DNA of 45,310 nt from a virus. Lineage: Duplodnaviria > Caudoviricetes. The stretch spans positions 1 to 45,310 of IMG/VR virus record IMGVR_UViG_3300014613_000009. The stretch is one strand, 5' to 3'. The translations under genes and the position numbers were made by a program. The notes under the pieces were generated by a model, which was given only the letters and a program-made list of their open reading frames with translations, did no database searches and was not told where the DNA came from. This document shows positions 2,534 through 26,095 of the stretch, one piece after another. Position 1 is the stretch's first letter, and each line of letters opens with the position of its first letter.

Positions 2534-2719
2534 ATGAGCAGAAAAATTGATATGGCCTTGGTCATCATTCTTGGGACTCTTTTGATTTGTGCCTGTATCT
2601 ATATATCTTATCAACAGGGAATTATCAGCACACTGCGAATAAATCTGAAACAATCTGATTTTTCTTTCTGGCAGTTGGCCGAAAGGAAAGAGTCGAATGA
2701 GGTGCAAAATGAAAACTAA
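2534..2719 (+). CDS. Small membrane protein
   Basis: N-terminal hydrophobic helix; AGGAG RBS. Confidence 0.65.
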   Translation: MSRKIDMALVIILGTLLICACIYISYQQGIISTLRINLKQSDFSFWQLAERKESNEVQNEN

Positions 2720-3380
2720 AATCAAATTTATTTTGTTAATGCTTTTGTTTTTGAGCTCGTCTGCAGAGGCAAAAGCTCTTATGAGTTTAACAACATTGAA
2801 TCTGATTGACCTTGAAAACTTCGTGAGAATCGACCCAAACGCGCCGGCCAAAGAGCAAAAAGAAATGCAGATGAATGGACTGGACTTTTTTGCCCGAAAC
2901 TATTTGTCGCCTTTTTTCTACGTTCCTACGGGAAAACTCAATCCCTGTTTCGGTTACAGATTGCCAAAAAGAGTAATGGTAAAGGTAGGAGGAGTAAAAC
3001 CTTGTTTTGATTGGATGGACGGTTTATCACCGGATGGCACGTATATATTAGTAACGGATAATACGGCCGGTCATTGGACAAACCTCTATTATAACGAGGA
3101 AACGGAACAGTATGAGATTTTGGGTTTTTCAGGAGAGGGATGGGCGTGGGTTGTAGATTACTTTGCCGATGATTATGGCAGCGGGCTTACTATTAAATGC
3201 TATTATTTCCCGCCCGGCGAGGACTATTATTCTTTCATAGGTTATGCCTTTAATGTCCAGATAACGGGGCATTGCGTATATGATTTTCTTGAAAAAGACG
3301 TTAATGGCAGCATATACACGGGCTGGAAATATGGCTGGGCAATGGTAACTCCTGCTCCTGACAGGAGACGGTGGCGGTAA
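2697..3380 (+). CDS. Exported protein of unknown function (start probably 2709)
   Basis: Signal peptide MKTKIKFILLMLLFLSSSAEA; aromatic, beta-rich mature part. Confidence 0.75.
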   Translation: MRCKMKTKIKFILLMLLFLSSSAEAKALMSLTTLNLIDLENFVRIDPNAPAKEQKEMQMNGLDFFARNYLSPFFYVPTGKLNPCFGYRLPKRVMVKVGGVKPCFDWMDGLSPDGTYILVTDNTAGHWTNLYYNEETEQYEILGFSGEGWAWVVDYFADDYGSGLTIKCYYFPPGEDYYSFIGYAFNVQITGHCVYDFLEKDVNGSIYTGWKYGWAMVTPAPDRRRWR

Positions 3381-3436: not shown

Positions 3437-4501
3437 ATGAAAAAACTATTAACAATTTGTTTGGTCCTGCTTGTTGCAGGAATGGTAAGGGCTGATTATC
3501 TGATTGACCCTTTTGTGATTTGTGAGAGGGCTGGAGTTCAGGTATGGCCTGATATCTATGGAGATTATGTGGTCTATTATGATGACCAGGGTGATGCCAA
3601 CACAAACATCTATGGCTTTAAGATTTCAACCGGGGAAGAGTTTTTAATTTGTGATGCTAATGACAGGCAATTTTGTCCGGTTATCGGTGGTGATATAGTA
3701 GTATGGTGTGATTATAGGAATTATTATACTACTGGTGCAGACATATATGGCTATAACTTATTGACTCAGGAAGAATTTATTGTCTGCAATGAGATAGGTG
3801 ACCAAGTATTTCCTGCTATAAGTGAAGATGGTCGGACTGTTGTGTGGTCGGATAGCAGGAATGATAGTTTCGATATTTATGGCAGATATTTATACGAACC
3901 AAATTCATTTATGATATGTAACGCAGTAAGAACGCAATATATGCCTGCTATAGATAATGGATTTGTAGTTTGGTATGACCTCCGATTTAATAATTGGGAT
4001 ATTTATGGGGTTGACCTTATGTCAGGTCAGGTTGTTAATATAAGCCACGCTGGAGGGCAGATGTATCCTGATATAAGTAATAACTGGATTGTTTATATGG
4101 ATGACCCAACAGGACAGTTTTTAGATACCAATATCTATAGATATAACATAGGCACAGGAGCGAGAACATTGATAACCAATGCGTTTGCTTATCAGACCGG
4201 AGTAGTTATAGACCGAAATATCATTGTTTGGGCTGATTGTCGAAATGACTTTGGTAATATATATGGTTATGATTTAGACACCAATCAAGAGTTTCCAATT
4301 TGTATGGCATCAGGTGAGCAGCTCTTACCTGCCGTAAGTGGTGATGTAGTAGTTTGGACGGATAAGAGAAATGGTAATGAAGATATAATGGGAGCGCGTC
4401 TTGTTAGGAAAGCAGACGTTGATGGTGATTTGGATTATGATAGTGATGTTGACTTCGATGACTTTGCAATAATGGCACAAAACTGGTTGAAAACTTATTA
4501 A
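3437..4501 (+). CDS. Exported beta-propeller repeat protein (Methanosarcina surface-protein-type repeats) with C-terminal dockerin/EF-hand-like tail
   Basis: Signal peptide; about 7 repeats of Q..PAI.G..VVW.D.RN...DIYGYDL; tail DGDLDYDSDVDFDDFAIMAQNWL. Confidence 0.85.
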   Translation: MKKLLTICLVLLVAGMVRADYLIDPFVICERAGVQVWPDIYGDYVVYYDDQGDANTNIYGFKISTGEEFLICDANDRQFCPVIGGDIVVWCDYRNYYTTGADIYGYNLLTQEEFIVCNEIGDQVFPAISEDGRTVVWSDSRNDSFDIYGRYLYEPNSFMICNAVRTQYMPAIDNGFVVWYDLRFNNWDIYGVDLMSGQVVNISHAGGQMYPDISNNWIVYMDDPTGQFLDTNIYRYNIGTGARTLITNAFAYQTGVVIDRNIIVWADCRNDFGNIYGYDLDTNQEFPICMASGEQLLPAVSGDVVVWTDKRNGNEDIMGARLVRKADVDGDLDYDSDVDFDDFAIMAQNWLKTY

Positions 4502-7730: not shown

Positions 7731-9029
7731 TTACCAGTCTTCGTTTACAAAAATAACCTGTCCCGCCGCCGTTGGCGCAGGGGTCTCGTAACTATAGATT
7801 AGAATCATACAACTTGTGATATAGGCATTAGCGTCAGTAGAGGCAACTTTGTAGCCCCAATATCTGTCACCATCATCAAGCGTCAAGGCAACAGAGCGAA
7901 CCCTGTCTTTGCTTGCGCTATTCACATTTATTTCGCTGTCCGGCTCTGCCGCTCCGCCCGTGCCCGAATCGTTCGTGCTGTCGTCCTTCAAAAAGAATAT
8001 GTCATCGTCATCCGCACAAAGTCCCGTGAAGTCGTGATAGACAGCAGGATTGCTGTAATTTGAAGTGGTCATTAGGACACGACTGCGTATGCCTGTATTA
8101 GCCGCAGCAGCAGTTGCACCGGAATAAGTGGATGCCCGCCAGTAGATTTCTGTTTTGGTCAGAGTGGTAAGAGTAACGTATAAATCCGCTTTGTATAATT
8201 TAACATTTCCAGCCGGATTATCTATTTTTATATACACTTCAAATTCATCGCCATCATCAAAATTCGTGGCATTATTGGCAAAGTCGGTATTGGCAATAGT
8301 CGGAGTGGATGTTAGGCCAAGAATTATTACTTCAGAAGCAGCTATTTGAGCATTATCCGTTACATTCCATAAAGTGGCATAAAAGTCATCGCTTCCCCCC
8401 TCGCCCACTACAGTCAATGACCATCCGCTTATCGTAGCAAAATTACTTGCCGTTTTTAAGAATCTTGTGTAATATCCGGTTGTTCCCTGCGTATAAGAAT
8501 CGCTGCTGTGAGCATCCACGTATGCCTCATCATCAGAATTGGAATAGCCGGATGTACCAAGCATAGGTATCTGTATTCTTGTCTTGGTCGCATTAACCTG
8601 AACAACAATTATCCTTGCCGTATAAACACGGACAGTCCCGCTTCCGGTTGGTATGTCCGGCGTTCTCACGGCGTAAATATGATTGGCCGCATCAGGCGAC
8701 CAGGATGCAGAGCGTAACCGAGTTTCATTGGTCGTGCTGTTGGGAATCGTTATTGATGTCTTAACGTCAGAGTCAGTCACATCATACAAATCAACTGCAT
8801 AAGTGCCGGAAGCATTGGAGTTATAGCCCACTATCTCGAAGTAGTAAGTAGCCCCGTCGTAGTTAGATGGGTCTAAATATGTCTGGCTGCGAAGGAAGAT
8901 AATAGGGCCGGATGTGGTGCTGCCGAGTCCCCTGTCCACCATTTCAATCGGGACTTCGAGGTTCATTGCCCCGAAACTTATGGAGCAAAATAAAAATAAA
9001 ATCAAAAAAGTTCTAATTCTTGTTTGCAC
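7731..9029 (-). CDS. Signal-peptide-bearing beta-rich virion appendage-like protein
   Basis: Leader MQTRIRTFLILFLFCSISFGA; Thr/Ser/Asp-rich; tail-fibre position. Confidence 0.7.
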   Translation of the reverse strand: MQTRIRTFLILFLFCSISFGAMNLEVPIEMVDRGLGSTTSGPIIFLRSQTYLDPSNYDGATYYFEIVGYNSNASGTYAVDLYDVTDSDVKTSITIPNSTTNETRLRSASWSPDAANHIYAVRTPDIPTGSGTVRVYTARIIVVQVNATKTRIQIPMLGTSGYSNSDDEAYVDAHSSDSYTQGTTGYYTRFLKTASNFATISGWSLTVVGEGGSDDFYATLWNVTDNAQIAASEVIILGLTSTPTIANTDFANNATNFDDGDEFEVYIKIDNPAGNVKLYKADLYVTLTTLTKTEIYWRASTYSGATAAAANTGIRSRVLMTTSNYSNPAVYHDFTGLCADDDDIFFLKDDSTNDSGTGGAAEPDSEINVNSASKDRVRSVALTLDDGDRYWGYKVASTDANAYITSCMILIYSYETPAPTAAGQVIFVNEDW

Positions 9030-10128
9030 TGAGATACCCCACTATACATATTTTGATTTGGTCAAGGTCGTCCGCCGAAGCGTCAAAGATTATGCCGTGA
9101 TTGTCCTCTATTGTTGCGTGGTCTATGTCATTAGCACCTATTATTGCATAATCCAAACCCGTCCCGTCCGTTGACATAGTTATCGCCTCGATTGTCGTCA
9201 GGGCGGTATTGTCGGTCAAATCGGTGATTTCCTTAAGCGTGAAATCGCCATCATCTCCGGCTTGGTCATCGCAGCGGGCATAAATCCTCTCTATAACATA
9301 AGTGAATCCCGTATGATTCTCCCAGACTATGAAAGTATCGGTATCGGCAAGCTGGTCTGGATTGGAAATCGCTATATTTAATATCTTCAATTTTTGGCCG
9401 ATGACAACCTGATTGGTATCATCGAATCCTCGCAAGGCATAATCATTCGAGTCCCAGCTTATCTCGCCTGCCGCGTCCACGTCTGGGTCTGTGCCGTTGG
9501 GTATTTCAAGTGATGTTGCACTGCCCAAATCATAAGCGCCGGTCGAAGCCGTCCATCCTTCCGTTACAAAATCATAGACATTATCACAAGTTGGAATGTT
9601 CACATCGTCCCCGTTTGTAACCAGCGCAATAAGAACGTCCAGCGTATCGTCCGTCAGGGATAAATGAGTTCCCACGGCCAGATTCGTATTATCGGATATA
9701 TCAACCGTAGTTAAAAAACTTTGCGCATCTATGTAATCATAGACGTTATCGCAGGTCGGAACATTAACGTCATCGCCGTTTTCCACATCACCTATCAGGA
9801 CATCGAAAGTATCGTCCGTCAAAGATACGTGCGTTCCGGCAGTCAGATTGGTATAATCGCTTATATCCACCGCATCTGCGTTCCAGGCGCCCGTAGCAAT
9901 AGTGCCGAGAATGGTTATATTTGCCGAGCCAGTCCACGTATTATTAAGGGTAACCCACGTGACTTTCCTGTCAACAGGCGTATTATTGGGGTCAAGCACG
10001 ACGTAAAACATAGCATTGACATCAACCGTAGCCGTTTGTGTCTTATCAAGCAGGTTCGGGTCGGAATCCGCTTTTGCCGGAATGCCATAAAAACAAATTA
10101 TCGTAAATATCAAGATTAACTTTTTCAT
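9013..10128 (-). CDS. Signal-peptide-bearing fibre-like protein with 55-aa tandem repeat
   Basis: Leader MKKLILIFTIICFYGIPAKA; fibre-like motifs TGSANITILGTIATGAWNA and EIPNGTDPDVDAAGEI. Confidence 0.75.
   Translation of the reverse strand: MKKLILIFTIICFYGIPAKADSDPNLLDKTQTATVDVNAMFYVVLDPNNTPVDRKVTWVTLNNTWTGSANITILGTIATGAWNADAVDISDYTNLTAGTHVSLTDDTFDVLIGDVENGDDVNVPTCDNVYDYIDAQSFLTTVDISDNTNLAVGTHLSLTDDTLDVLIALVTNGDDVNIPTCDNVYDFVTEGWTASTGAYDLGSATSLEIPNGTDPDVDAAGEISWDSNDYALRGFDDTNQVVIGQKLKILNIAISNPDQLADTDTFIVWENHTGFTYVIERIYARCDDQAGDDGDFTLKEITDLTDNTALTTIEAITMSTDGTGLDYAIIGANDIDHATIEDNHGIIFDASADDLDQIKICIVGYLSANKN
9565..9870 (-). repeat. Two-copy 165-nt (55-aa) intragenic repeat
   Basis: VDISD.TNL..GTH.SLTDDT.DVLI..V.NGDDVN.PTCDNVYD occurs twice. 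Confidence 0.9.
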
Positions 10129-10140
10129 AAGTATTGTCCT

Positions 10141-11592
10141 TTATTGTTCTACAGTGGCAAATTCAGCCCCATCAACAAAATAAAAATCAGTTCCATCCAC
10201 AAAATTAAAATAAATTATCCATTCCGTCAATGGTATTATTTTCCACCTGTTATCTTGAACTGCCAAATATAAATTGTATTCATCGTAAGCCACATCGCCA
10301 GCGCTGCAAGCGCCTGTCGGACTGGTCGGCACGTCAGACCAGCTAAAACCGCCTCCGCCTGCTCCGTTTGCGGCGGCAGTCAGTCTGCCATCAGCATCAA
10401 CGGTTATATCGGCGTTCGTATATGCCCCTGCCACTACGGTAGTCGAGGCAAGCTCCGTAGCTCCGACTCCGCCTGTGGCTATTGTAACATTTCCGTTTGT
10501 AGCGTCAAAATTCGTATTATCAAAAGAGGCAAGCCCCTTTGTGGCACCATCATCATCGGCGTTTCGTATTTCAAAGGCGCCGTATCCTGTATTGACATCG
10601 GCGCAAATTAAAGAACCGCCGAAAAAAGATGGGGCAGAGCCGGACTGGTAAATACAATAATCCGGCGTTTCATCATATTCATTGAGATAAAGAATATATG
10701 AACTATCGCCTATCGTCGGGGTATTGATTAGTCGCAAGTCTATATAAACCCCATAGGCGTTCCTTCCGATGCTTGCTGCATTTATCGACGATGTTATCAA
10801 AGCGCCGGTAATATCGTAAGTTACAGTGGTTGTATTGTCTGTTGCGTAAGCACCTGTTGTAAGACCTTGAATATGCGAACTGTCTGCTCCATCCATTATA
10901 GTAGTTGAGCCAAGTATTCCATACATAGTATCCGTGAGATGGGAATTTGCGCCGGACGTGAAATTGGTAAATCTGAGGCCGTAACTGTTGTCGGCAGTTC
11001 CCTGTTCGATGTAAATATCCGCCGTAACGCCGCATATCCTGTCGATAATTCCGCCCGATTGATTGAAATTGCCAGCAATATCCAATCCGTAAAAAACGTC
11101 TGTTGCATCGGTAGCTCCCGAAGTTTTGTCAAGGTCTATATACAGTCCCTGATGTCCTGTTGTCCCTGCGGGGTCGGCGTTTATGAAGGCCGAATAAGTG
11201 CCGGACGTATTTGTAAGAGACAATTTTCCTCCGGTATACGTTCCGCTGCCTATATCAACGCTGTCGTTGGCGGTTTTCGGCGACAAGGTAGTGCCGGAAC
11301 GAGACCATAAATTACAAGGGTCTGTTTCCGGGGTTTCCGTTATCCAGCCAAGATTACCAGAACCATCCGTTTTTAACAACTGTCCACTTGTGCCGTCAGC
11401 ATAAGGCAAGACCCATATCTGATTGGCAATCAAAGCAGGGGCTTCAAATCCGACATAATTGCTGTCGCCAACATCGTAAAACCGCAATTCTCCACCGCTT
11501 TTTATCCAAAGCTCTGATACCTTCTGGGCTATCAAGCCCATACAAAGCAGGCAAACCAAAACCAAAAAGATTATTAAGAGCTTTCGCCCCAT
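10141..11592 (-). CDS. Tail fibre-like protein with N-terminal signal/TM segment
   Basis: Leader MGRKLLIIFLVLVCLLCMG; fibre motifs LPYADGTSGQLLKTDGSGNLGW and AGAYTNADITVDADGRLTAAANG. Confidence 0.75.
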   Translation of the reverse strand: MGRKLLIIFLVLVCLLCMGLIAQKVSELWIKSGGELRFYDVGDSNYVGFEAPALIANQIWVLPYADGTSGQLLKTDGSGNLGWITETPETDPCNLWSRSGTTLSPKTANDSVDIGSGTYTGGKLSLTNTSGTYSAFINADPAGTTGHQGLYIDLDKTSGATDATDVFYGLDIAGNFNQSGGIIDRICGVTADIYIEQGTADNSYGLRFTNFTSGANSHLTDTMYGILGSTTIMDGADSSHIQGLTTGAYATDNTTTVTYDITGALITSSINAASIGRNAYGVYIDLRLINTPTIGDSSYILYLNEYDETPDYCIYQSGSAPSFFGGSLICADVNTGYGAFEIRNADDDGATKGLASFDNTNFDATNGNVTIATGGVGATELASTTVVAGAYTNADITVDADGRLTAAANGAGGGGFSWSDVPTSPTGACSAGDVAYDEYNLYLAVQDNRWKIIPLTEWIIYFNFVDGTDFYFVDGAEFATVEQ

Positions 11593-11783
11593 TCTGCACC
11601 TGTTTCCCAAGAACCGGAAATCCTTATTTCAATTTTTATATTTCCTTCCGTTATATTAAATCTCACCGAGCCGTCAGTGTCGGCGTCGCCGCGCAAATAT
11701 ATATACTGTCCCGTGAAGGCAACAGAGCCGTCACGCTTGATATACTCCTGATAATCCGGGTCTTTAATCGGCCATATCTGCAC
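11574..11783 (-). CDS. Small tail-fibre-associated protein
   Basis: Fibre-like motif YIKRDGSVAFTG; GAGG RBS; no signal peptide. Confidence 0.6.
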   Translation of the reverse strand: MQIWPIKDPDYQEYIKRDGSVAFTGQYIYLRGDADTDGSVRFNITEGNIKIEIRISGSWETGAEWGESS

Positions 11784-19163: not shown

Positions 19164-20921
19164 TTATCTCCCGCTTTTAGTCATTCTTGCCACTATTGCC
19201 CGAATCGTGCAGGGCAGCGACCCTGAACCCGTAATCAACATCTTATCTCTTACATCGAACCCGGCGTCGAAAGTGACAATTTTATCGCCTGTAAATAATT
19301 CACCAGCCGTCCAGCCAGCATCGTATAGATTATTGGCATCTTTGCCGTAATAAGCGCCGGCCGTTCTCAAAAAACTGATTACCAATTCGTGTATCTTTTT
19401 AATTGAGCCGTGAGTCGTGCCACCCTGAACGTCCACGTCAATCCTCATCGGCTCAAGTTTGTAAGTATATGATAGTCCGACTGCCGCTTTTGAAACAAGC
19501 GTTTCTACGCCGTCTAACTTGGTCGTTATCTGGCCTGAAGCAACGGTCGCATCGTCAAATTCCACACCATCGCCAAAAACCTTGACTGTCTCGCCTTCGA
19601 GATGATTAAGTTCCGTAATAGTGGAAGTTCCATCGCTGTCATAAACTATACCCGCATCAGCGAAATAGGCGTCCTCAATGTCTGCGAAATTCCGAGACAT
19701 CATTCTTTCTATATGAGTAACGTCCGCCTCATCTATAAGCCTTTGCGCCGACAGCCAGACCTTGTCCTCTTTTACCGAAGGCACAACGCATACGCTCAAA
19801 ACCGTTGCGTCCCCGCCAAGAGGATGTTTCGACCACGCCACAACGTTCTGCTCTCTCTCATAAGTCATTGAAATCAGCGAGCCATCCGAAAGAGTAAGCC
19901 ATAAAATAGAATCGGGATTTCTCTGGTGCGCTATGGACGTTATGCCGGACAGGGTTATATGTTCCGCCAGAGATGTCAGGTCTGGAGAAACATATTTGCC
20001 TTCGGGATATTCCCTGTAAACCAATTCCCTTACTTTTCTGCCCACGTAATCGATGAATAAAATGACATCGTTTACCCTTATCGGCTGAACCATACTGCTG
20101 CCGTAATTCGACTGCTGCTTTATGGAGACGTTGGTCGGCGTTATGGGCGTGTCCAGCTTGTTCGATTTTATGAGCCATTCGTCGCCGGAAGTTCCCACCA
20201 GAAGTGATTCAATCGCCTCTACCCATCGAATGTTGTTCATCGTGGGGACGACTATCCAGAAGGCGTCGTCATCCTCAACCCCCTCGCTGAAATTGTCGTA
20301 ATCGCCGGTCTTGCTGAACCAGACTATCTGCTGCTTTCGCTGGCGCAAAGCGACATACTCAACACCGCCTTCAACTTCTTCGTCCGGTGTTGTGCCTTCG
20401 GAATCCTCGCCTTCCGGCTCAATATCAGGCCAGCTTCCATCTTCTGGTATCATTTCTTCTTCTCCGTTTCCGCTGCCCTCTGCATCGATTGTAATTGGAT
20501 ATATTTCAGAACTTTTTATTTCCCAATAATCAGCAGGCCAGGGAATATGATTCAAGTATTGCCAAAAAAGAATATAAGAGCCTGCGTTTGCATCTTCAGG
20601 AACTTTAACTGTAACCGTAACCCATCCTTCTTCGATTCCGGCGCCCCATTCTATCCCGTCGTCAGTTGACGAGATAACATTGCTCGCTCCTATCGCTTCG
20701 GCAAGAGGCGTAACATCAGGATATTCAGCTATCCAACTATCTATGTATTCCTGAGTAAATACGCATTCCTCAACAAATCCTCCTTCTGTTACGCTTAAAG
20801 TGAGAGCGGCTTTTGTTGTTGTATTATCTGAATTTCTATCAGAGTAAAAATAAAATTCAAAAGTATAAGTTCCACCTTTCTTCCAGACACCATCAAGTTC
20901 TACATTACGAAAATAGCTCAT
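19164..20921 (-). CDS. Tail tubular protein B (nozzle), C-terminal half with an extra N-terminal domain
   Basis: QIVWFSKTGDYDNF, LLVGTSGDEW, DLTSLAEHIT, TYEREQNVVAWSKH; first ~190 aa are unrelated. Confidence 0.85.
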   Translation of the reverse strand: MSYFRNVELDGVWKKGGTYTFEFYFYSDRNSDNTTTKAALTLSVTEGGFVEECVFTQEYIDSWIAEYPDVTPLAEAIGASNVISSTDDGIEWGAGIEEGWVTVTVKVPEDANAGSYILFWQYLNHIPWPADYWEIKSSEIYPITIDAEGSGNGEEEMIPEDGSWPDIEPEGEDSEGTTPDEEVEGGVEYVALRQRKQQIVWFSKTGDYDNFSEGVEDDDAFWIVVPTMNNIRWVEAIESLLVGTSGDEWLIKSNKLDTPITPTNVSIKQQSNYGSSMVQPIRVNDVILFIDYVGRKVRELVYREYPEGKYVSPDLTSLAEHITLSGITSIAHQRNPDSILWLTLSDGSLISMTYEREQNVVAWSKHPLGGDATVLSVCVVPSVKEDKVWLSAQRLIDEADVTHIERMMSRNFADIEDAYFADAGIVYDSDGTSTITELNHLEGETVKVFGDGVEFDDATVASGQITTKLDGVETLVSKAAVGLSYTYKLEPMRIDVDVQGGTTHGSIKKIHELVISFLRTAGAYYGKDANNLYDAGWTAGELFTGDKIVTFDAGFDVRDKMLITGSGSLPCTIRAIVARMTKSGR

Positions 20922-22271
20922 TTATTCTTCCGCATCTAAAATCTGGGTCGGCACTTGAACCGTCCCGCCGTAAATGCACCTGTCCTCGAAAAACGTAACG
21001 CTCGACGGGTAGCCCCGCAATGGCGACCACGCCCCTTCCGCCCATCTTTTCGTGGCGTCAGTGGATTCAAGCTCGACTACGACCTCTATGGCCGCCTCCG
21101 TAGCACTGTTGACATCGGTAACTTTCACTATTCCTTTCGTAACGGCTTCATCGACCGTAATGTCCGCCTTTATTTTGCCCGACTCTCTTTCGCTTACCAC
21201 TGCCCGATACTGGACGTTGTCTGCCTCTTCCTCGCCCGAATATTGAACGTTATACGTATAAGTCCTGTAATTTTCCCAGCCCGCACTATTTTCATTTCTC
21301 TGTAAGGCGACCGTCGCCTTCCACGTTCCCTGTATGACAAAGTGAAAAGTCCCTTTCACGTCTATCGCATCGCAGACCGTCCCGTTATCGCTGATGCTTC
21401 CCTTTGATATCGTGTCCTCTCTCGGATGGGTAAGCTCGAAAATTGACCCGATATGCTCATCCACAAAATAATCATTGCTGCAAGTCAATGTTCCCGTTTC
21501 ACCCGCAGCCGTTTTACTGCTTGCCATTGTAGCCGTATCAGTAACGTCAGGGTCTAACAGGTCGTTTCTTGTAAGGAACGGGCCTTTTTTGAACTCTATA
21601 GCATCAAGCGAAAAAGATGTCGTCGTAGTCCTCGTCAGCTTTCTCGGAGCGTAAGAGGGATGAATTATCCACATAGTATCGGCTAATTGTTTAATATGGA
21701 GTTGAAACAAATGTGCCGTAAGATAGGGCGTCTCAACAAGAACTTCCAAATCGCTTCCGTCAACGAGAACCTCATCCTCATAGAAAAACCGCATATACTT
21801 ATTTCCCAGTTCTATCTTGTAGGAAATTGTCGATGAGTAAATGAAACTTATTATTCTCACCGTCTCAGCTTCATTCAGGGACACCAAAGGATAGTTCGCT
21901 CCGCAATCCCTGCTGTTTGTCCCATCTGAAATTATCTCGCCATCGGTAAAATCACCGTCCAGATTGGTTATAACGTATTCGGTAGAGGACGTAACTTCGA
22001 TTACCCGACAGGTAGTCCCACTTTCGGCGCCCGTAAGGGTCGCCCCGAAAGAAAAGGCAGCCGGAGCAGGCGAGGAGTCCAGCGTCAAAGTCCATAATTG
22101 AGAATTGTATATATGCTTTGTGCCGGGCCTGCGCTCAACGCCGCCGTAAATTCTTGGTAAAAAATTTTCAAGCTGTCGGCAGCCGGACGAATACTTTTCG
22201 ACATCGCTGCGGCAGTCTATCTGCGGAGTAAAAACCCCACCTGTAAAATTGACAAGTCCAACATTACTCAT
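20922..22271 (-). CDS. Tail tubular protein B (nozzle), N-terminal half
   Basis: NFTGG, ENFLPRIYGGVERRPGT, QLADTMWIIHPSYAPRKL, WAEGAWS..RGYPSSVTFFEDR. Confidence 0.85.
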   Translation of the reverse strand: MSNVGLVNFTGGVFTPQIDCRSDVEKYSSGCRQLENFLPRIYGGVERRPGTKHIYNSQLWTLTLDSSPAPAAFSFGATLTGAESGTTCRVIEVTSSTEYVITNLDGDFTDGEIISDGTNSRDCGANYPLVSLNEAETVRIISFIYSSTISYKIELGNKYMRFFYEDEVLVDGSDLEVLVETPYLTAHLFQLHIKQLADTMWIIHPSYAPRKLTRTTTTSFSLDAIEFKKGPFLTRNDLLDPDVTDTATMASSKTAAGETGTLTCSNDYFVDEHIGSIFELTHPREDTISKGSISDNGTVCDAIDVKGTFHFVIQGTWKATVALQRNENSAGWENYRTYTYNVQYSGEEEADNVQYRAVVSERESGKIKADITVDEAVTKGIVKVTDVNSATEAAIEVVVELESTDATKRWAEGAWSPLRGYPSSVTFFEDRCIYGGTVQVPTQILDAEE

Positions 22272-23265: not shown

Positions 23266-23637
23266 TTATCTCCCGTCTATATATAAAACCACGTCAACGG
23301 TCATTGTGGACGTGCCGGGGTCGCCGGACGGAGTGACCTTAATCGTGATATTGCCGTCAACGCACACCGCAAGCGGCAAGTCCGTGCTGGACAGCGTCCA
23401 GTATTGAAATACCGTCGTGGCGGCTTCGGCAATGCCCGCCTCGCTCCACAAAGTAATACTGTCCTCATCGACTATGGCCGCCGTAGCCGTCTTATTGCCC
23501 GTATTGTCGTTCACCGTGACGGAAATCTGTCTTATTATGCCATTGAGCCGAAGCGCAGAGGAAGACACTGCCGCAGTCCCGCCGTTGGGTATGGTCACTC
23601 TCGGACATTCGTATCTTGATATTCTTTCCTGTCTCAT
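23266..23637 (-). CDS. Small beta-sandwich virion protein
   Basis: Beta-rich; AAGGA RBS; position after the head genes. Confidence 0.65.
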   Translation of the reverse strand: MRQERISRYECPRVTIPNGGTAAVSSSALRLNGIIRQISVTVNDNTGNKTATAAIVDEDSITLWSEAGIAEAATTVFQYWTLSSTDLPLAVCVDGNITIKVTPSGDPGTSTMTVDVVLYIDGR

Positions 23638-23650
23638 ATAATAATTCCTT

Positions 23651-23679
23651 AAAAAGGGGGCGAGTCCAGCCCGCCCCCC
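23651..23679 (-). terminator. Rho-independent terminator
   Basis: GGGGGCG/CGCCCCC stem followed by TTTTT on the minus strand. Confidence 0.8.
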
Positions 23680-23804
23680 TACTTTAACCAGTTATCAAAG
23701 AACATTTCTAACTCATCGGGACTTCTTCTGACCAAAACGAAAGCTGCATAATCGCAAAAATTCACAATCCCATTTTCGTCAAAGTCAAAGCGTCCCCTTA
23801 CTAT
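23679..23804 (-). other. Cryptic dockerin-like coding segment in the -1 frame of the 764-aa ORF
   Basis: Translates IVRGRFDFDENGIVNFCDYAAFVLVRRSPDELEMFFDNWLK-stop, ending at the terminator. Confidence 0.7.
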
Positions 23805-26095
23805 AAAGTTCCTCCGCCTCCTGCCACAACGTTTCCGGTGGCGTCAAGCGGAGTCCACCAGACGTGGAATACAATCGTTCCATCGGCAATGTCCTGCACC
23901 TGACAGTCGAGGCCGACATCGAGACCTCCGACAACGACAAAATCAAAGAACCCGCTTGCCCCGATTGCCGTATGCTCCGTCGGGGACGTATCAAGCCAGA
24001 TTTCGCCTGAATCAAGATTCGTATTGTCTGCGCCTTCGGTGTTAATGACGGTGGCCGCAAGAATAACGTCCTCACTGGTTCCCGCCCACAAAGCTATCGT
24101 GCCTCCGTCAGTTCCCGTGCAGGTATCGGTGCATTCCATTAAAAGCCGGATTCGCACCGCTCCGGTAACAGTAAGAACCTCGTCCGTCTCGCCTGAGAGA
24201 CCCCAGTGTCCGGCTCCGGTAGTGCCGTCAAAATCAACCGTAACGGCAAGATAGTGAGAAGTGTCATAGGCCGGAAGCGCAGCGCCCTCGAATCTTCCAA
24301 GCATCTGGGTTATGCGCCCATTGCAGTCGTCAACGTGATTGTTCGTCCAGAGATTGGAATCCTCAACTACGGACACGGCGTAATCGTTGCACTCTCCGAT
24401 ATAAGTCTTTGTATAGCTGTTGCAATCTTCCAAATTGTTGTTAGACCACAGATTAGAATCCTCGGCTATAGACACCGCATAATCATTACACTCGCTAATG
24501 TAAGTCTTCGTGTAGCTGTTGCAGTCGCTCAAATTGTTGTTAGACCATAAGTTGGAATCAACTATTAAGGACACTGAATAGTCATTACACTCGCCTATGT
24601 AAGTCCTTGTATAGCTATTGCAGTCTTCCAGATTGTTGTTCGTCCAGAGATTCACATCGACCACTCTGTCAGAAATGGCTTCCAGAGAGTCGGTCGTATT
24701 ATTATACGAAGTCTTTATCGGAGAGGCCGATTTGGACATCAAAAACGCCATTATCGACTCGGTGGCGACTGAATCGGGATACGTCAAAGACGCACTCCTG
24801 TCATCGGCGGCAATCAGTTTATCGAGAGAATCGGCCTCAATAGCGTCAGTTGCTTCGCCCTCTATCGCCGCAAGAGCGGTGGCGTTCCATGATGTTGTCC
24901 CTCCGCTCTGAGGAACCGTTGCAACGGCGTCTGCAATAGCTTGCAATGAATCGGTGGTATTATCGAAGGTCGATGCCGTTGCCGTAGTGCCAGAAACCAT
25001 AATAAAGGCGAAAAGCGAGTCCGGCTCTACATTGTCAGGATAGTTGTTTGTGGCAGCAGTCGCCTTTTTAAGCGCCCATCCAGGCCCTGCTTCCGCATCC
25101 TCGGCTGCGCCGTAATCCGCCTCGATATTCATGGCGTTCTCCATACTTCCGGGGTCAACAATCGTGCCTGGAGTATCGGATGCGCAGTAATTGGAATACA
25201 AAAGGCCTGTAGCCGTTGTGGAAAACTCTATGGCGTGGATTCCAGTATGGATATTCGTAATGACATTGTAGGCAATATAAGAATGCGTATCAATGTCGTC
25301 ACTGAATATCGCAGCGTCGGCATAATCGCCAAGCACGTAGTTATTAACAACTCTGATATTGTCAATCACTCCTACCGTCATATCCAGCCACGTATTGGCA
25401 CCATCAGATGTCGAGGAAACAGAGATTGCGATGCAGTTTGAAATAATCAAATCGTCTGCGGCGGCATCGGGTTGAATTGCATCTAGGAACTCATCGGTCG
25501 ATGCAGCCTCACCATCCATAAACTCGCAGTTGTCTATAATTGAACCGTCGGCGTCCGCCTCGATTTCTATGGCATGGACGACCTGGTTATAACCCGGCTG
25601 AAACGTAAGATTGTAAAGTTTCACGTTCGCAGCGCCTATTACCAGTTCCGCATCGGCATCATCGTAGTCAAATCTCGGCCTGTTGGAGCCGGTTCCAAGC
25701 CCTATAATCGTCACGCCGATAACGTCAATGTCGGCGCTGTCAGTCCCGGTCCAGTTCTCATTATGACCGGCTGCGACGTAAATAACGTCTCCATTATTGT
25801 CGCTGCACAGGGCAACGGCGGCGTCAAGGGTCGTCATGGCGTCCGTCAAGCTAATGCCGGTTCCAAGTCCCGTAGCGCCACTATCGACGTAAAAAGAGTT
25901 TCCCGTCCCCGCCCCTTCTCCGGTAACCTTGGAATGGAGAAGGTCGAGCGAGGCCTTGACGCTGTCGTCCTGAGCGTTGCCGCCATCGCCGGAAAATCCG
26001 CCTATCATATCATTGGTCTGCTTTATCCTTGTCGCGTAGCACGGCAAAACGAAAAGCAGAACCAGAACAATCATAAATATCTTTTTGGTATTCAT
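23801..26095 (-). CDS. Signal-peptide-bearing head-fibre/spike-like protein (beta-helix, hendecad stalk, C-terminal beta domain)
   Basis: Leader MNTKKIFMIVLVLLFVLPCYA; pectin-lyase-like start FYVDSG...TTLDAAV...GDVIYVAAGH. Confidence 0.75.
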   Translation of the reverse strand: MNTKKIFMIVLVLLFVLPCYATRIKQTNDMIGGFSGDGGNAQDDSVKASLDLLHSKVTGEGAGTGNSFYVDSGATGLGTGISLTDAMTTLDAAVALCSDNNGDVIYVAAGHNENWTGTDSADIDVIGVTIIGLGTGSNRPRFDYDDADAELVIGAANVKLYNLTFQPGYNQVVHAIEIEADADGSIIDNCEFMDGEAASTDEFLDAIQPDAAADDLIISNCIAISVSSTSDGANTWLDMTVGVIDNIRVVNNYVLGDYADAAIFSDDIDTHSYIAYNVITNIHTGIHAIEFSTTATGLLYSNYCASDTPGTIVDPGSMENAMNIEADYGAAEDAEAGPGWALKKATAATNNYPDNVEPDSLFAFIMVSGTTATASTFDNTTDSLQAIADAVATVPQSGGTTSWNATALAAIEGEATDAIEADSLDKLIAADDRSASLTYPDSVATESIMAFLMSKSASPIKTSYNNTTDSLEAISDRVVDVNLWTNNNLEDCNSYTRTYIGECNDYSVSLIVDSNLWSNNNLSDCNSYTKTYISECNDYAVSIAEDSNLWSNNNLEDCNSYTKTYIGECNDYAVSVVEDSNLWTNNHVDDCNGRITQMLGRFEGAALPAYDTSHYLAVTVDFDGTTGAGHWGLSGETDEVLTVTGAVRIRLLMECTDTCTGTDGGTIALWAGTSEDVILAATVINTEGADNTNLDSGEIWLDTSPTEHTAIGASGFFDFVVVGGLDVGLDCQVQDIADGTIVFHVWWTPLDATGNVVAGGGGTL
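24320..24658 (-). repeat. 99-nt (33 aa = 3 x 11) tandem repeat, about 3.4 copies
   Basis: Units of DSNLWSNNNLE-DCNSYTKTYIG-ECNDYAVSxxx. Confidence 0.92.

What the first reader, a model, noticed from the sequence alone, without database searches (positions are those of the whole stretch)
23679..23844. Hidden dockerin-like tail in the -1 frame behind the head-appendage gene
The apparent intergenic gap after the 764-aa ORF encodes IVRGRFDFDENGIVNFCDYAAFVLVRRSPDELEMFFDNWLK-TAG in the -1 frame, the same DxDxxGxVxFxD...NWL pattern as the tail of 3437-4501. It ends exactly at the terminator and has no ATG/GTG upstream of the motif. The -1 frame is open only from about 23844. Candidate slip sites are C GGA AAC and T TTA TAG, next to GGAGG tracts. 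A programmed frameshift would give two isoforms, with and without a Ca-binding docking tag. Alternatives are an ATA start after GGAGG or a recently truncated ancestral tail. A prfB-like AAGGGG ACG CTT TGA C also lies at 23784-23799, but in the +1 frame.
Basis: partly seen in the sequence, partly recalled or inferred. Interest (0 to 1): 0.85.

Follow-up and report, generated by a model that had tools for sequence, protein, structure and literature searches.

The report
Out-of-frame dockerin tag behind phage gene
A groundwater phage carries an intact 41-codon host-type dockerin-like module inserted out of frame right behind the stop of a putative head-fibre gene, which ribosomes may occasionally append by slipping back one base, although no related phage examined has it and expression is untested.

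Summary
On the minus strand, the -1 frame behind the 764-aa gene encodes an intact compact dockerin-like (EF-hand loop) module. A host-derived profile scores it at E=3e-9; the next unrelated six-frame segment scores 1.6. It has no ATG/GTG/TTG start and stops at a terminator-like hairpin. It is not an assembly error: contigs of five non-source runs from four studies cross the junction unchanged. It is not a truncated ancestral tail: the family ends at the same residue, and 0 of 33 homologous loci carry the module. Compared with relatives it is a 119-nt insert between the stop and the terminator, starting at the domain boundary. The best reading (about 0.4) is low-level -1 frameshifting at the terminal A ACU UUA UAG, analogous to Ig-like domains appended to phage virion proteins. 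Support: an unusually slippery last codon pair, a UAG stop and one similar phage locus. Against: no conservation and no 3' stimulator. Rivals are a silent relic (0.28) and an AUA-started mini-protein (0.22). The prfB-like motif is probably a by-product of the junction G-run plus Phe-Asp codons.

The parts
23801..26095 (-). 764-aa gene X: second gene after the major capsid gene; signal-peptide-like N-terminus; C-terminal jelly-roll domain ending at the family's natural C-terminus; putative head fibre or decoration protein (inferred)
   Evidence: model pLDDT 85.6; VIA-align Z 6.4-7.0, rmsd about 3 A, about 107 aligned, to TNF/C1q-type domains and capsid cement proteins (all Z<8); hydrophobic N-terminus 3.9
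23817..23822 (-). SD-like AGGAGG, 10 nt before the terminal TTA codon and 6 nt before the heptamer
23811..23815 (-). second SD-like GGAGG, 6 nt before ATA (23804) and 4 nt before TTA
   Evidence: expected with p=0.47 from the Gly codons alone
23801..23810 (-). candidate -1 shift site A ACT TTA followed by the TAG stop (then TAA at 23800-23798)
23679..23804 (-). 41-codon compact dockerin-like module in the -1 frame (open from 23843), from ATA to TAG
23784..23799 (-). prfB-like AAGGGG-ACG-CTT TGA C in the +1 frame; also reads G-T-L-stop
23794..23806 (-). 5' copy of a 13-nt imperfect direct repeat (11 of 13 identical) flanking the 119-nt insert
23675..23687 (-). 3' copy of the direct repeat: tail stop plus the start of the hairpin G-run
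23651..23680 (-). terminator-like G/C hairpin with U tract, same layout as after gene X in capsid relatives
   Evidence: the consensus scan did not list it
3437..4501 (+). host-like beta-propeller protein with signal-like N-terminus and an in-frame C-terminal dockerin-like repeat; second copy of the motif in this phage
   Evidence: (TIGR04275, E 1.5e-53)

Best explanation
A 119-nt piece coding for one intact compact dockerin-like module sits between the stop codon of phage gene X and its terminator-like hairpin, and it is likely expressed at low level as a 41-residue C-terminal extension when ribosomes slip back one base at the terminal A ACU UUA UAG. Shown: sequence, frame, intactness, insert layout relative to relatives, absence of an indel. 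Inferred: origin by non-homologous capture from a Planctomycetota host gene or a host-like phage gene. Inferred: slippage either as a tandem shift (ACU UUA to AAC UUU, with a central P-site mismatch as in T7 G GUU UUC) or of the P-site Leu-tRNA (UUA to UUU) while UAG waits in the A site, possibly helped by AGGAGG 10 nt upstream. Inferred: the result is two isoforms, the minor one carrying the tag that host exported proteins carry in 44-94 copies per genome, which would let the fibre or exported protein dock on the host surface. Ca2+ binding and the partner are untested.
For: (1) The module is complete and matches compact host and phage forms L057, L058, L075, L085, and the insert starts within about two codons of the domain's first conserved residue; precise boundaries are unlikely for a neutral break. 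(2) The terminal codon pair is the only one of 19 late-gene ends with at most one re-pairing mismatch; background is 2.6% of late-gene codon pairs and 1.3% within gene X, and 1 of 33 homologous gene ends. (3) UAG stop here against TAA in 29 of 33 homologues. (4) AGGAGG lies 10 nt before the P-site codon; -1 stimulation needs 9-14 nt (PMC5009743, passages). (5) The tail has no signal peptide, gene X has a signal-like N-terminus, and fusion gives the host architecture. (6) A second phage, L084/L111, has a signal-peptide gene of about 490 aa ending in a perfect A AAT TTT TAG with a dockerin-like frame in -1 phase; L086 has a similar gene with the module in frame. (7) Precedent: Ig-like domains landing out of frame on phage proteins and expressed by frameshifting (PMC5009743, passages).
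Against: No conservation: 0 of 33 gene X loci, 0 of 2 in host MAGs (read by eye), including an 89% identical C-terminal domain (L045). The heptamer is imperfect. There is no 3' structure at stimulatory distance (z between +1.2 and -1.8). Measured to the heptamer the SD is only 6 nt away, and a second GGAGG 4 nt from the P-site codon has +1 or initiation geometry. The review says a slow A-site codon matters more for +1 than for -1 shifts. The signals were picked after the fact among several candidates, so p of 0.01-0.03 is weak. L084's frame also has its own ATG. -1 phase is also what translational coupling gives (L011, L022, L031). All sampled populations are identical, so selection cannot be measured.
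Confidence: 0.4

Rival explanations
1. Silent relic: an accessory gene ending in this module once lay between gene X and the terminator, or a fragment was captured there; a deletion removed its start, and the 41 codons are transcribed but not usefully translated.
For: The slot after gene X holds extra genes in several capsid relatives (L155, L165, L187, L209). Broken motif remnants occur in other phages: L143 with an in-frame stop, L114 split over two frames. No homologue has the tail. The similar 'stop + G-run' at both ends fits a deletion from a first terminator. One substitution at the second stop codon would give a canonical start 9 nt after GGAGG, the geometry seen in L080.
Against: The break falls at the domain boundary, about 1-2% of positions in a gene of several hundred codons (estimate). 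The domain has no stop or indel. The terminal codon pair is unusually slippery.
Confidence: 0.28
2. Coupled mini-gene: terminating or free ribosomes initiate at AUA (23804), 6 nt after GGAGG, making a free 41-aa cytoplasmic dockerin-like peptide at low level, perhaps a decoy or Ca2+-binding factor.
For: The SD is as strong as the best phage starts tested (-9.5 kcal/mol against a recalled generic anti-SD). The A-TAG overlap has the ATGA geometry used after gene X in L022 and L031. Tiny frames with the motif are enriched in phages: 4 of 21 matches lie in frames of 37 aa or fewer, against 1 of the 150 listed host matches. Some have real starts (L084 ATG, L080 TTG after GGAGG, L106 63 aa ATG). ESM Atlas neighbours are 28-41-aa clusters at 0.95-0.96 (they may be contig-edge fragments).
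Against: AUA gives only 1-2% (0.02-3%) of AUG initiation in E. coli (10.1101/063800, passages). The SD is expected from the Gly codons (p=0.47). The peptide has no signal sequence, while host and most phage copies sit on exported proteins. No stand-alone homologue of 22-72 aa was found.
Confidence: 0.22
3. prfB-type route: ribosomes that reach the +1 frame (internal start, an earlier +1 slip, or a hop over the double stop) shift +1 at CUU UGA C into the module; or the site is the relic end of an older gene X allele that used this shift.
For: Exact prfB geometry, unique in the window; p=0.023 given the tail peptide and 0.0015 with a random linker. The +1 frame reads G-T-L-stop like the family C-terminus and is open for 97 codons (p about 0.03; 0 of 31 homologues reach 97). 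Four of five host prfB loci show CTT TGA at the expected place.
Against: The site is not in frame with gene X and there is no good +1 re-pairing at TTA TAG. CTT TGA arises in 33% of synonymous codings of this peptide. The G-run is explained as the duplicated stop/terminator junction. The 96-aa +1 ORF looks like a shadow frame.
Confidence: 0.07
4. Assembly error or chance motif.
For: No Pfam, PHROG or NCBIfam hit for the peptide; no real relative among 1.84 billion representatives (2 hits; the one read is an unrelated repeat protein).
Against: Five non-source runs from four studies are identical across the junction; host-profile E=3e-9; 21 of 301 host-order genomes match at E<=0.01.
Confidence: 0.03

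Closest known systems
Frameshift-appended Ig-like domains on phage virion proteins (T3 gene 10, Lactobacillus phage A2, Listeria A118/A500/PSA; T7 10B G GUU UUC site)
   Same: An accessory domain lies out of frame at the 3' end of a virion-module gene, is reached by a shift in the last codons, and is sporadic among relatives; imperfect XXX in the heptamer as in T7 (PMC5009743, passages).
   Different: The domain is a Planctomycetota dockerin-like EF-hand module, not Ig-like; the carrier is a signal-peptide-bearing jelly-roll fibre-like protein, not the major capsid or tail protein; no product has been shown.
Dockerin type I (PF00404) and non-cellulosomal dockerins of Planctomycetota ('planctosome', PMC6461901; Limihaloglobus, PMC11557425)
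   Same: DxDxNGxVNFxD loop plus helix; 28 of 37 aligned relatives match Dockerin_1 at E<=1, best 5e-5.
   Different: One loop only (compact form); below all Pfam cut-offs; cohesin found in only 1 of 5 host genomes that hold 44-94 motif copies, so the partner is probably not a classical cohesin.
prfB (RF2) +1 frameshift cassette
   Same: SD-like G-run, 3-nt spacer, CUU UGA C.
   Different: Not in frame with any established upstream gene; probably a by-product of the junction.

Membership tests
Dockerin type I (PF00404) | Ca2+-binding loop consensus DxN/DxDGxVN/DxxD followed by a helix (definition recalled) | tested here: met
   DFDENGIVNFCDY; host-repeat HMM E=3.3e-9
Dockerin type I (PF00404) | two tandem loop-helix repeats (definition recalled) | tested here: not met
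   second loop absent; 7-residue linker to the FxxNWL helix, as in compact host forms
Dockerin type I (PF00404) | Pfam score above the gathering cut-off | tested here: not met
   0 families at E<=0.1; only EF-hand_8 at E=0.2
Dockerin type I (PF00404) | binds Ca2+ and a cohesin | not testable with these tools
   cohesin PF00963 in 1 of 5 host genomes
Programmed -1 frameshift extension of a phage virion protein | -1 frame open across the 0-frame stop and coding for a coherent domain | tested here: met
Programmed -1 frameshift extension of a phage virion protein | X XXY YYZ shift site inside the overlap | tested here: inconclusive
   A ACT TTA has YYY intact and one XXX mismatch; background 1.3-2.6%
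Programmed -1 frameshift extension of a phage virion protein | internal SD 9-14 nt upstream | tested here: inconclusive
   10 nt to the terminal codon, 6 nt to the heptamer
Programmed -1 frameshift extension of a phage virion protein | 3' stimulatory hairpin or pseudoknot (common, not universal) | tested here: not met
   z +1.2 to -1.8 for 30-80 nt after the stop; pseudoknots not searched
Programmed -1 frameshift extension of a phage virion protein | site and out-of-frame domain conserved in relatives | tested here: inconclusive
   0 of 33 homologous loci, but none is from a close genome; all near-identical runs are invariant
Programmed -1 frameshift extension of a phage virion protein | trans-frame product detected; carrier present in the virion | not testable with these tools
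   no proteomic or ribosome-profiling data
prfB-type +1 cassette | SD, 3 nt, CUU UGA C | tested here: met
   23799-23784
prfB-type +1 cassette | CUU UGA in frame with the upstream coding sequence | tested here: not met
   +1 relative to gene X

The most novel reading that the evidence does not exclude
Phages of dockerin-rich Planctomycetota use the host's surface-docking tag as a mobile module and attach it to a minority of their fibre or exported proteins by -1 frameshifting at a slippery last codon pair before UAG (this locus and L084). This is a dockerin counterpart of frameshift-appended Ig-like domains, letting virions or phage proteins plug into the host's surface docking system.
Probability: 0.3. 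Interest if true: 0.75.

Novelty: new variant of a known kind. Interest (0 to 1): 0.47.

Why it matters
If expressed, it would extend frameshift-made isoforms of phage structural proteins from Ig-like domains to a host-derived dockerin-like tag. It would also give a small probe for the unknown partner of a module found in 44-94 copies per genome in five host genomes with few cohesins. I found no paper linking dockerin, phage and frameshift: 0 hits; some searches listed only apparently unrelated papers, judged from the search listing. If silent, it is a neat snapshot of a domain landing out of frame, the step proposed to precede such recoding.

Tried and rejected
Assembly indel: rejected. Truncated ancestral tail: rejected, the family C-terminus is invariant. 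Decayed double dockerin: rejected, compact forms exist in frame in hosts. Library searches with the peptide led nowhere: Pfam, PHROGs, NCBIfam, PDB sequences (36, best E 0.53), word-index searches near and longer (20, 38), representatives (58), viral contigs (15, one hit to the first 17 residues only). C GGA AAC (23836) scores as well as the terminal heptamer on re-pairing but was not favoured. Host out-of-frame cases L149-L151 show several frame breaks and look like indels or pseudogenes; L152 and L153 are contig ends. Four extra hits are unrelated. Many of the 36 loci are unrelated EF-hand-like proteins; I counted only records re-scored (15 motif-bearing records plus 33 others). The single-sequence fold of gene X was unusable (pLDDT 35). 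Foldseek against PDB gave no E<=0.001; BFVD gave only uncharacterised or unnamed viral proteins at that level. An RNA-run contig (X9, 23512-23744) crosses the hairpin, but it has no strand and may be DNA, so it is not used. Contig breaks near 23624-23647 in three low-depth runs are not interpreted. Earlier-findings look-ups returned nothing. One search covered 50 of the 60 capsid-related loci's records; most are fragments (4 are at least 90% complete). No supplementary files were read.

Full report
Setting. The window is a complete virus record with direct terminal repeats. It is a podovirus-like phage with terminase, portal, capsid and T7-like tail tubular genes on the minus strand, found in groundwater metagenome runs. 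Gene order at the finding: capsid (27958-26978), a 262-aa gene, the 764-aa gene X (26095-23801), a 163-nt gap, a 123-aa gene, tail tubular A. A gene in the X slot follows the capsid and 262-aa genes in all 14 capsid relatives printed. Its C-terminal domain folds confidently with an alignment (pLDDT 85.6) as a jelly roll resembling TNF/C1q domains and capsid cement proteins (Z up to 7.0, all below 8). 'Head appendage' is therefore a reasonable inference, not a shown fact, and its signal-peptide-like N-terminus leaves export open.

Observation. The -1 frame is open from 23843 and encodes the 41-residue peptide from ATA 23804 to TAG 23679. That TAG is the start of a strong G/C hairpin with a U tract. 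Curated libraries do not recognise the peptide. The 3437-4501 protein led to two MAG loci titled Pirellulales and Planctomycetota; from recall, not from a call, the motif is typical of Sedimentisphaerales. In that order 21 of 301 genomes match the peptide at E<=0.01. An HMM of 34 host repeats finds only the tail (E 3.3e-9) and the 3437-4501 C-terminus (1.7e-6) among 1698 six-frame segments. Five host genomes hold 44-94 copies each. The tail equals a compact form found in frame in hosts and one phage (L057, L058, L075, L085), so it is intact. Contigs of five non-source runs from four studies cross the junction with no difference; study P3 also contains a possible source run.

Relatives. All 11 non-self homologous proteins end at the same C-terminus. 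None of 39 viral loci shows the motif. In a non-redundant set of 33 gene ends the best score is E=0.025, against 1e-10 for the window. The 89%-identical L045 has a stop and a hairpin only. None of 60 capsid-related loci or 50 whole records carries it. In 13 capsid relatives the gene X stop is followed within 5-97 nt by the next start, in most cases through a G-run hairpin, T tract and SD. The window has that layout plus 119 nt, flanked by an 11-of-13 direct repeat. The first four tail residues derive from the stop codons and the G-run; donor-like sequence starts at R-F-D-F-D. So a whole domain, and little else, was placed between stop and terminator.

How it could be read. (a) -1 shift. A ACT TTA is the only one of 19 late-gene ends with at most one re-pairing mismatch (background 1.3-2.6%; 1 of 33 homologues). 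It is followed by TAG where 29 of 33 homologues use TAA. AGGAGG lies 10 nt before the last codon. Passages of PMC5009743 give 9-14 nt for -1 stimulation and 3 nt for +1, an imperfect XXX in T7 gene 10, and the idea that domains landing out of frame are sometimes rescued by frameshifting. Against it: no 3' structure, a second SD at +1 or initiation spacing, the review's remark that slow A-site codons mainly aid +1 shifts, and post hoc choice of signals. (b) AUA start. The SD is strong but expected from the Gly codons (p=0.47); AUA yields about 1-2% of AUG (10.1101/063800, passages). (c) prfB-like site. It is unique in the window, the hosts use such a site in prfB (4 of 5 loci), and the +1 frame is open for 97 codons (p about 0.03). 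But CTT TGA follows from Phe-Asp codons in a third of codings, the G-run is the junction repeat, and there is no clear entry into the +1 frame. (d) Silent relic.

Other phages. DNA patterns found 7 and 36 viral loci. Re-scoring 48 records gave 21 matches in 18. Most are in frame, after a signal peptide or at a C-terminus. Four lie in frames of 37 aa or fewer, against 1 of the 150 host matches listed (of 345). L084 has both an ATG and a perfect A AAT TTT TAG at the end of an upstream signal-peptide gene; L080 has TTG after GGAGG and no shift site; L114 is split over two frames; L143 has an internal stop. The module is thus mobile in these phages and occurs in fused, miniature and broken states, which keeps all three main readings alive.

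Verdict. A real and intact out-of-frame domain. I put low-level -1 extension at 0.40, silent relic 0.28, AUA mini-protein 0.22, prfB-type route 0.07, artefact 0.03. It works like the Ig-like frameshift extensions if it works at all. It is not filed as a PF00404 dockerin because duplication and the Pfam cut-off are not met. Papers: passages read in PMC5009743, 10.1101/063800, PMC6461901 and PMC11557425; all others were seen as search listings only. Interest 0.47.

Noticed in passing
window 23801-26095, 7731-9029, 9013-10128, 10141-11610, 2697-3380, 3437-4501: Several virion-module and accessory genes begin with signal-peptide-like hydrophobic N-termini; most gene X homologues do too. This is unusual for virion proteins and may point to export or periplasmic assembly.
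   Followed up: partly
L084/L111 about 2444-2554 (record G318): 36-aa dockerin-like frame in -1 phase over the end of a signal-peptide gene of about 490 aa, with a perfect A AAT TTT TAG heptamer and also an ATG; the best second candidate for a frameshift-appended tag.
   Followed up: partly
L080/L090 about 2260-2575: Duplicated 5' fragment of a tail tubular B gene followed by a 30-aa dockerin-like mini-frame (TTG after GGAGG) that overlaps the next gene's start.
   Followed up: partly
L083, L085, L113, L118, L135, L139: Phage genes with 'signal peptide + dockerin-like module' at the N-terminus, often followed by a Met, as if a mini-gene had fused to the downstream gene.
   Followed up: no
window 19164-22271: Tail tubular B (phrog_376) is split into two adjacent ORFs of 449 and 585 aa with inserted segments; L173 shows a similar split.
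   Followed up: no
window 23785-24075 (-): The +1 shadow frame of gene X is open for 97 codons, the longest stop-free run of that frame in the gene, and contains an ATG after a GGAGGT.
   Followed up: partly
window about 24330-24690 (-): Gene X contains about four tandem 33-residue repeats (DSNLWxNNNLxDCNSYT...), not seen in the 11 homologues read.
   Followed up: no
G063, G023, G214, G229, G232: 44-94 dockerin-like repeats per genome but a Pfam cohesin in only one of five genomes; the partner of this module is unexplained.
   Followed up: partly
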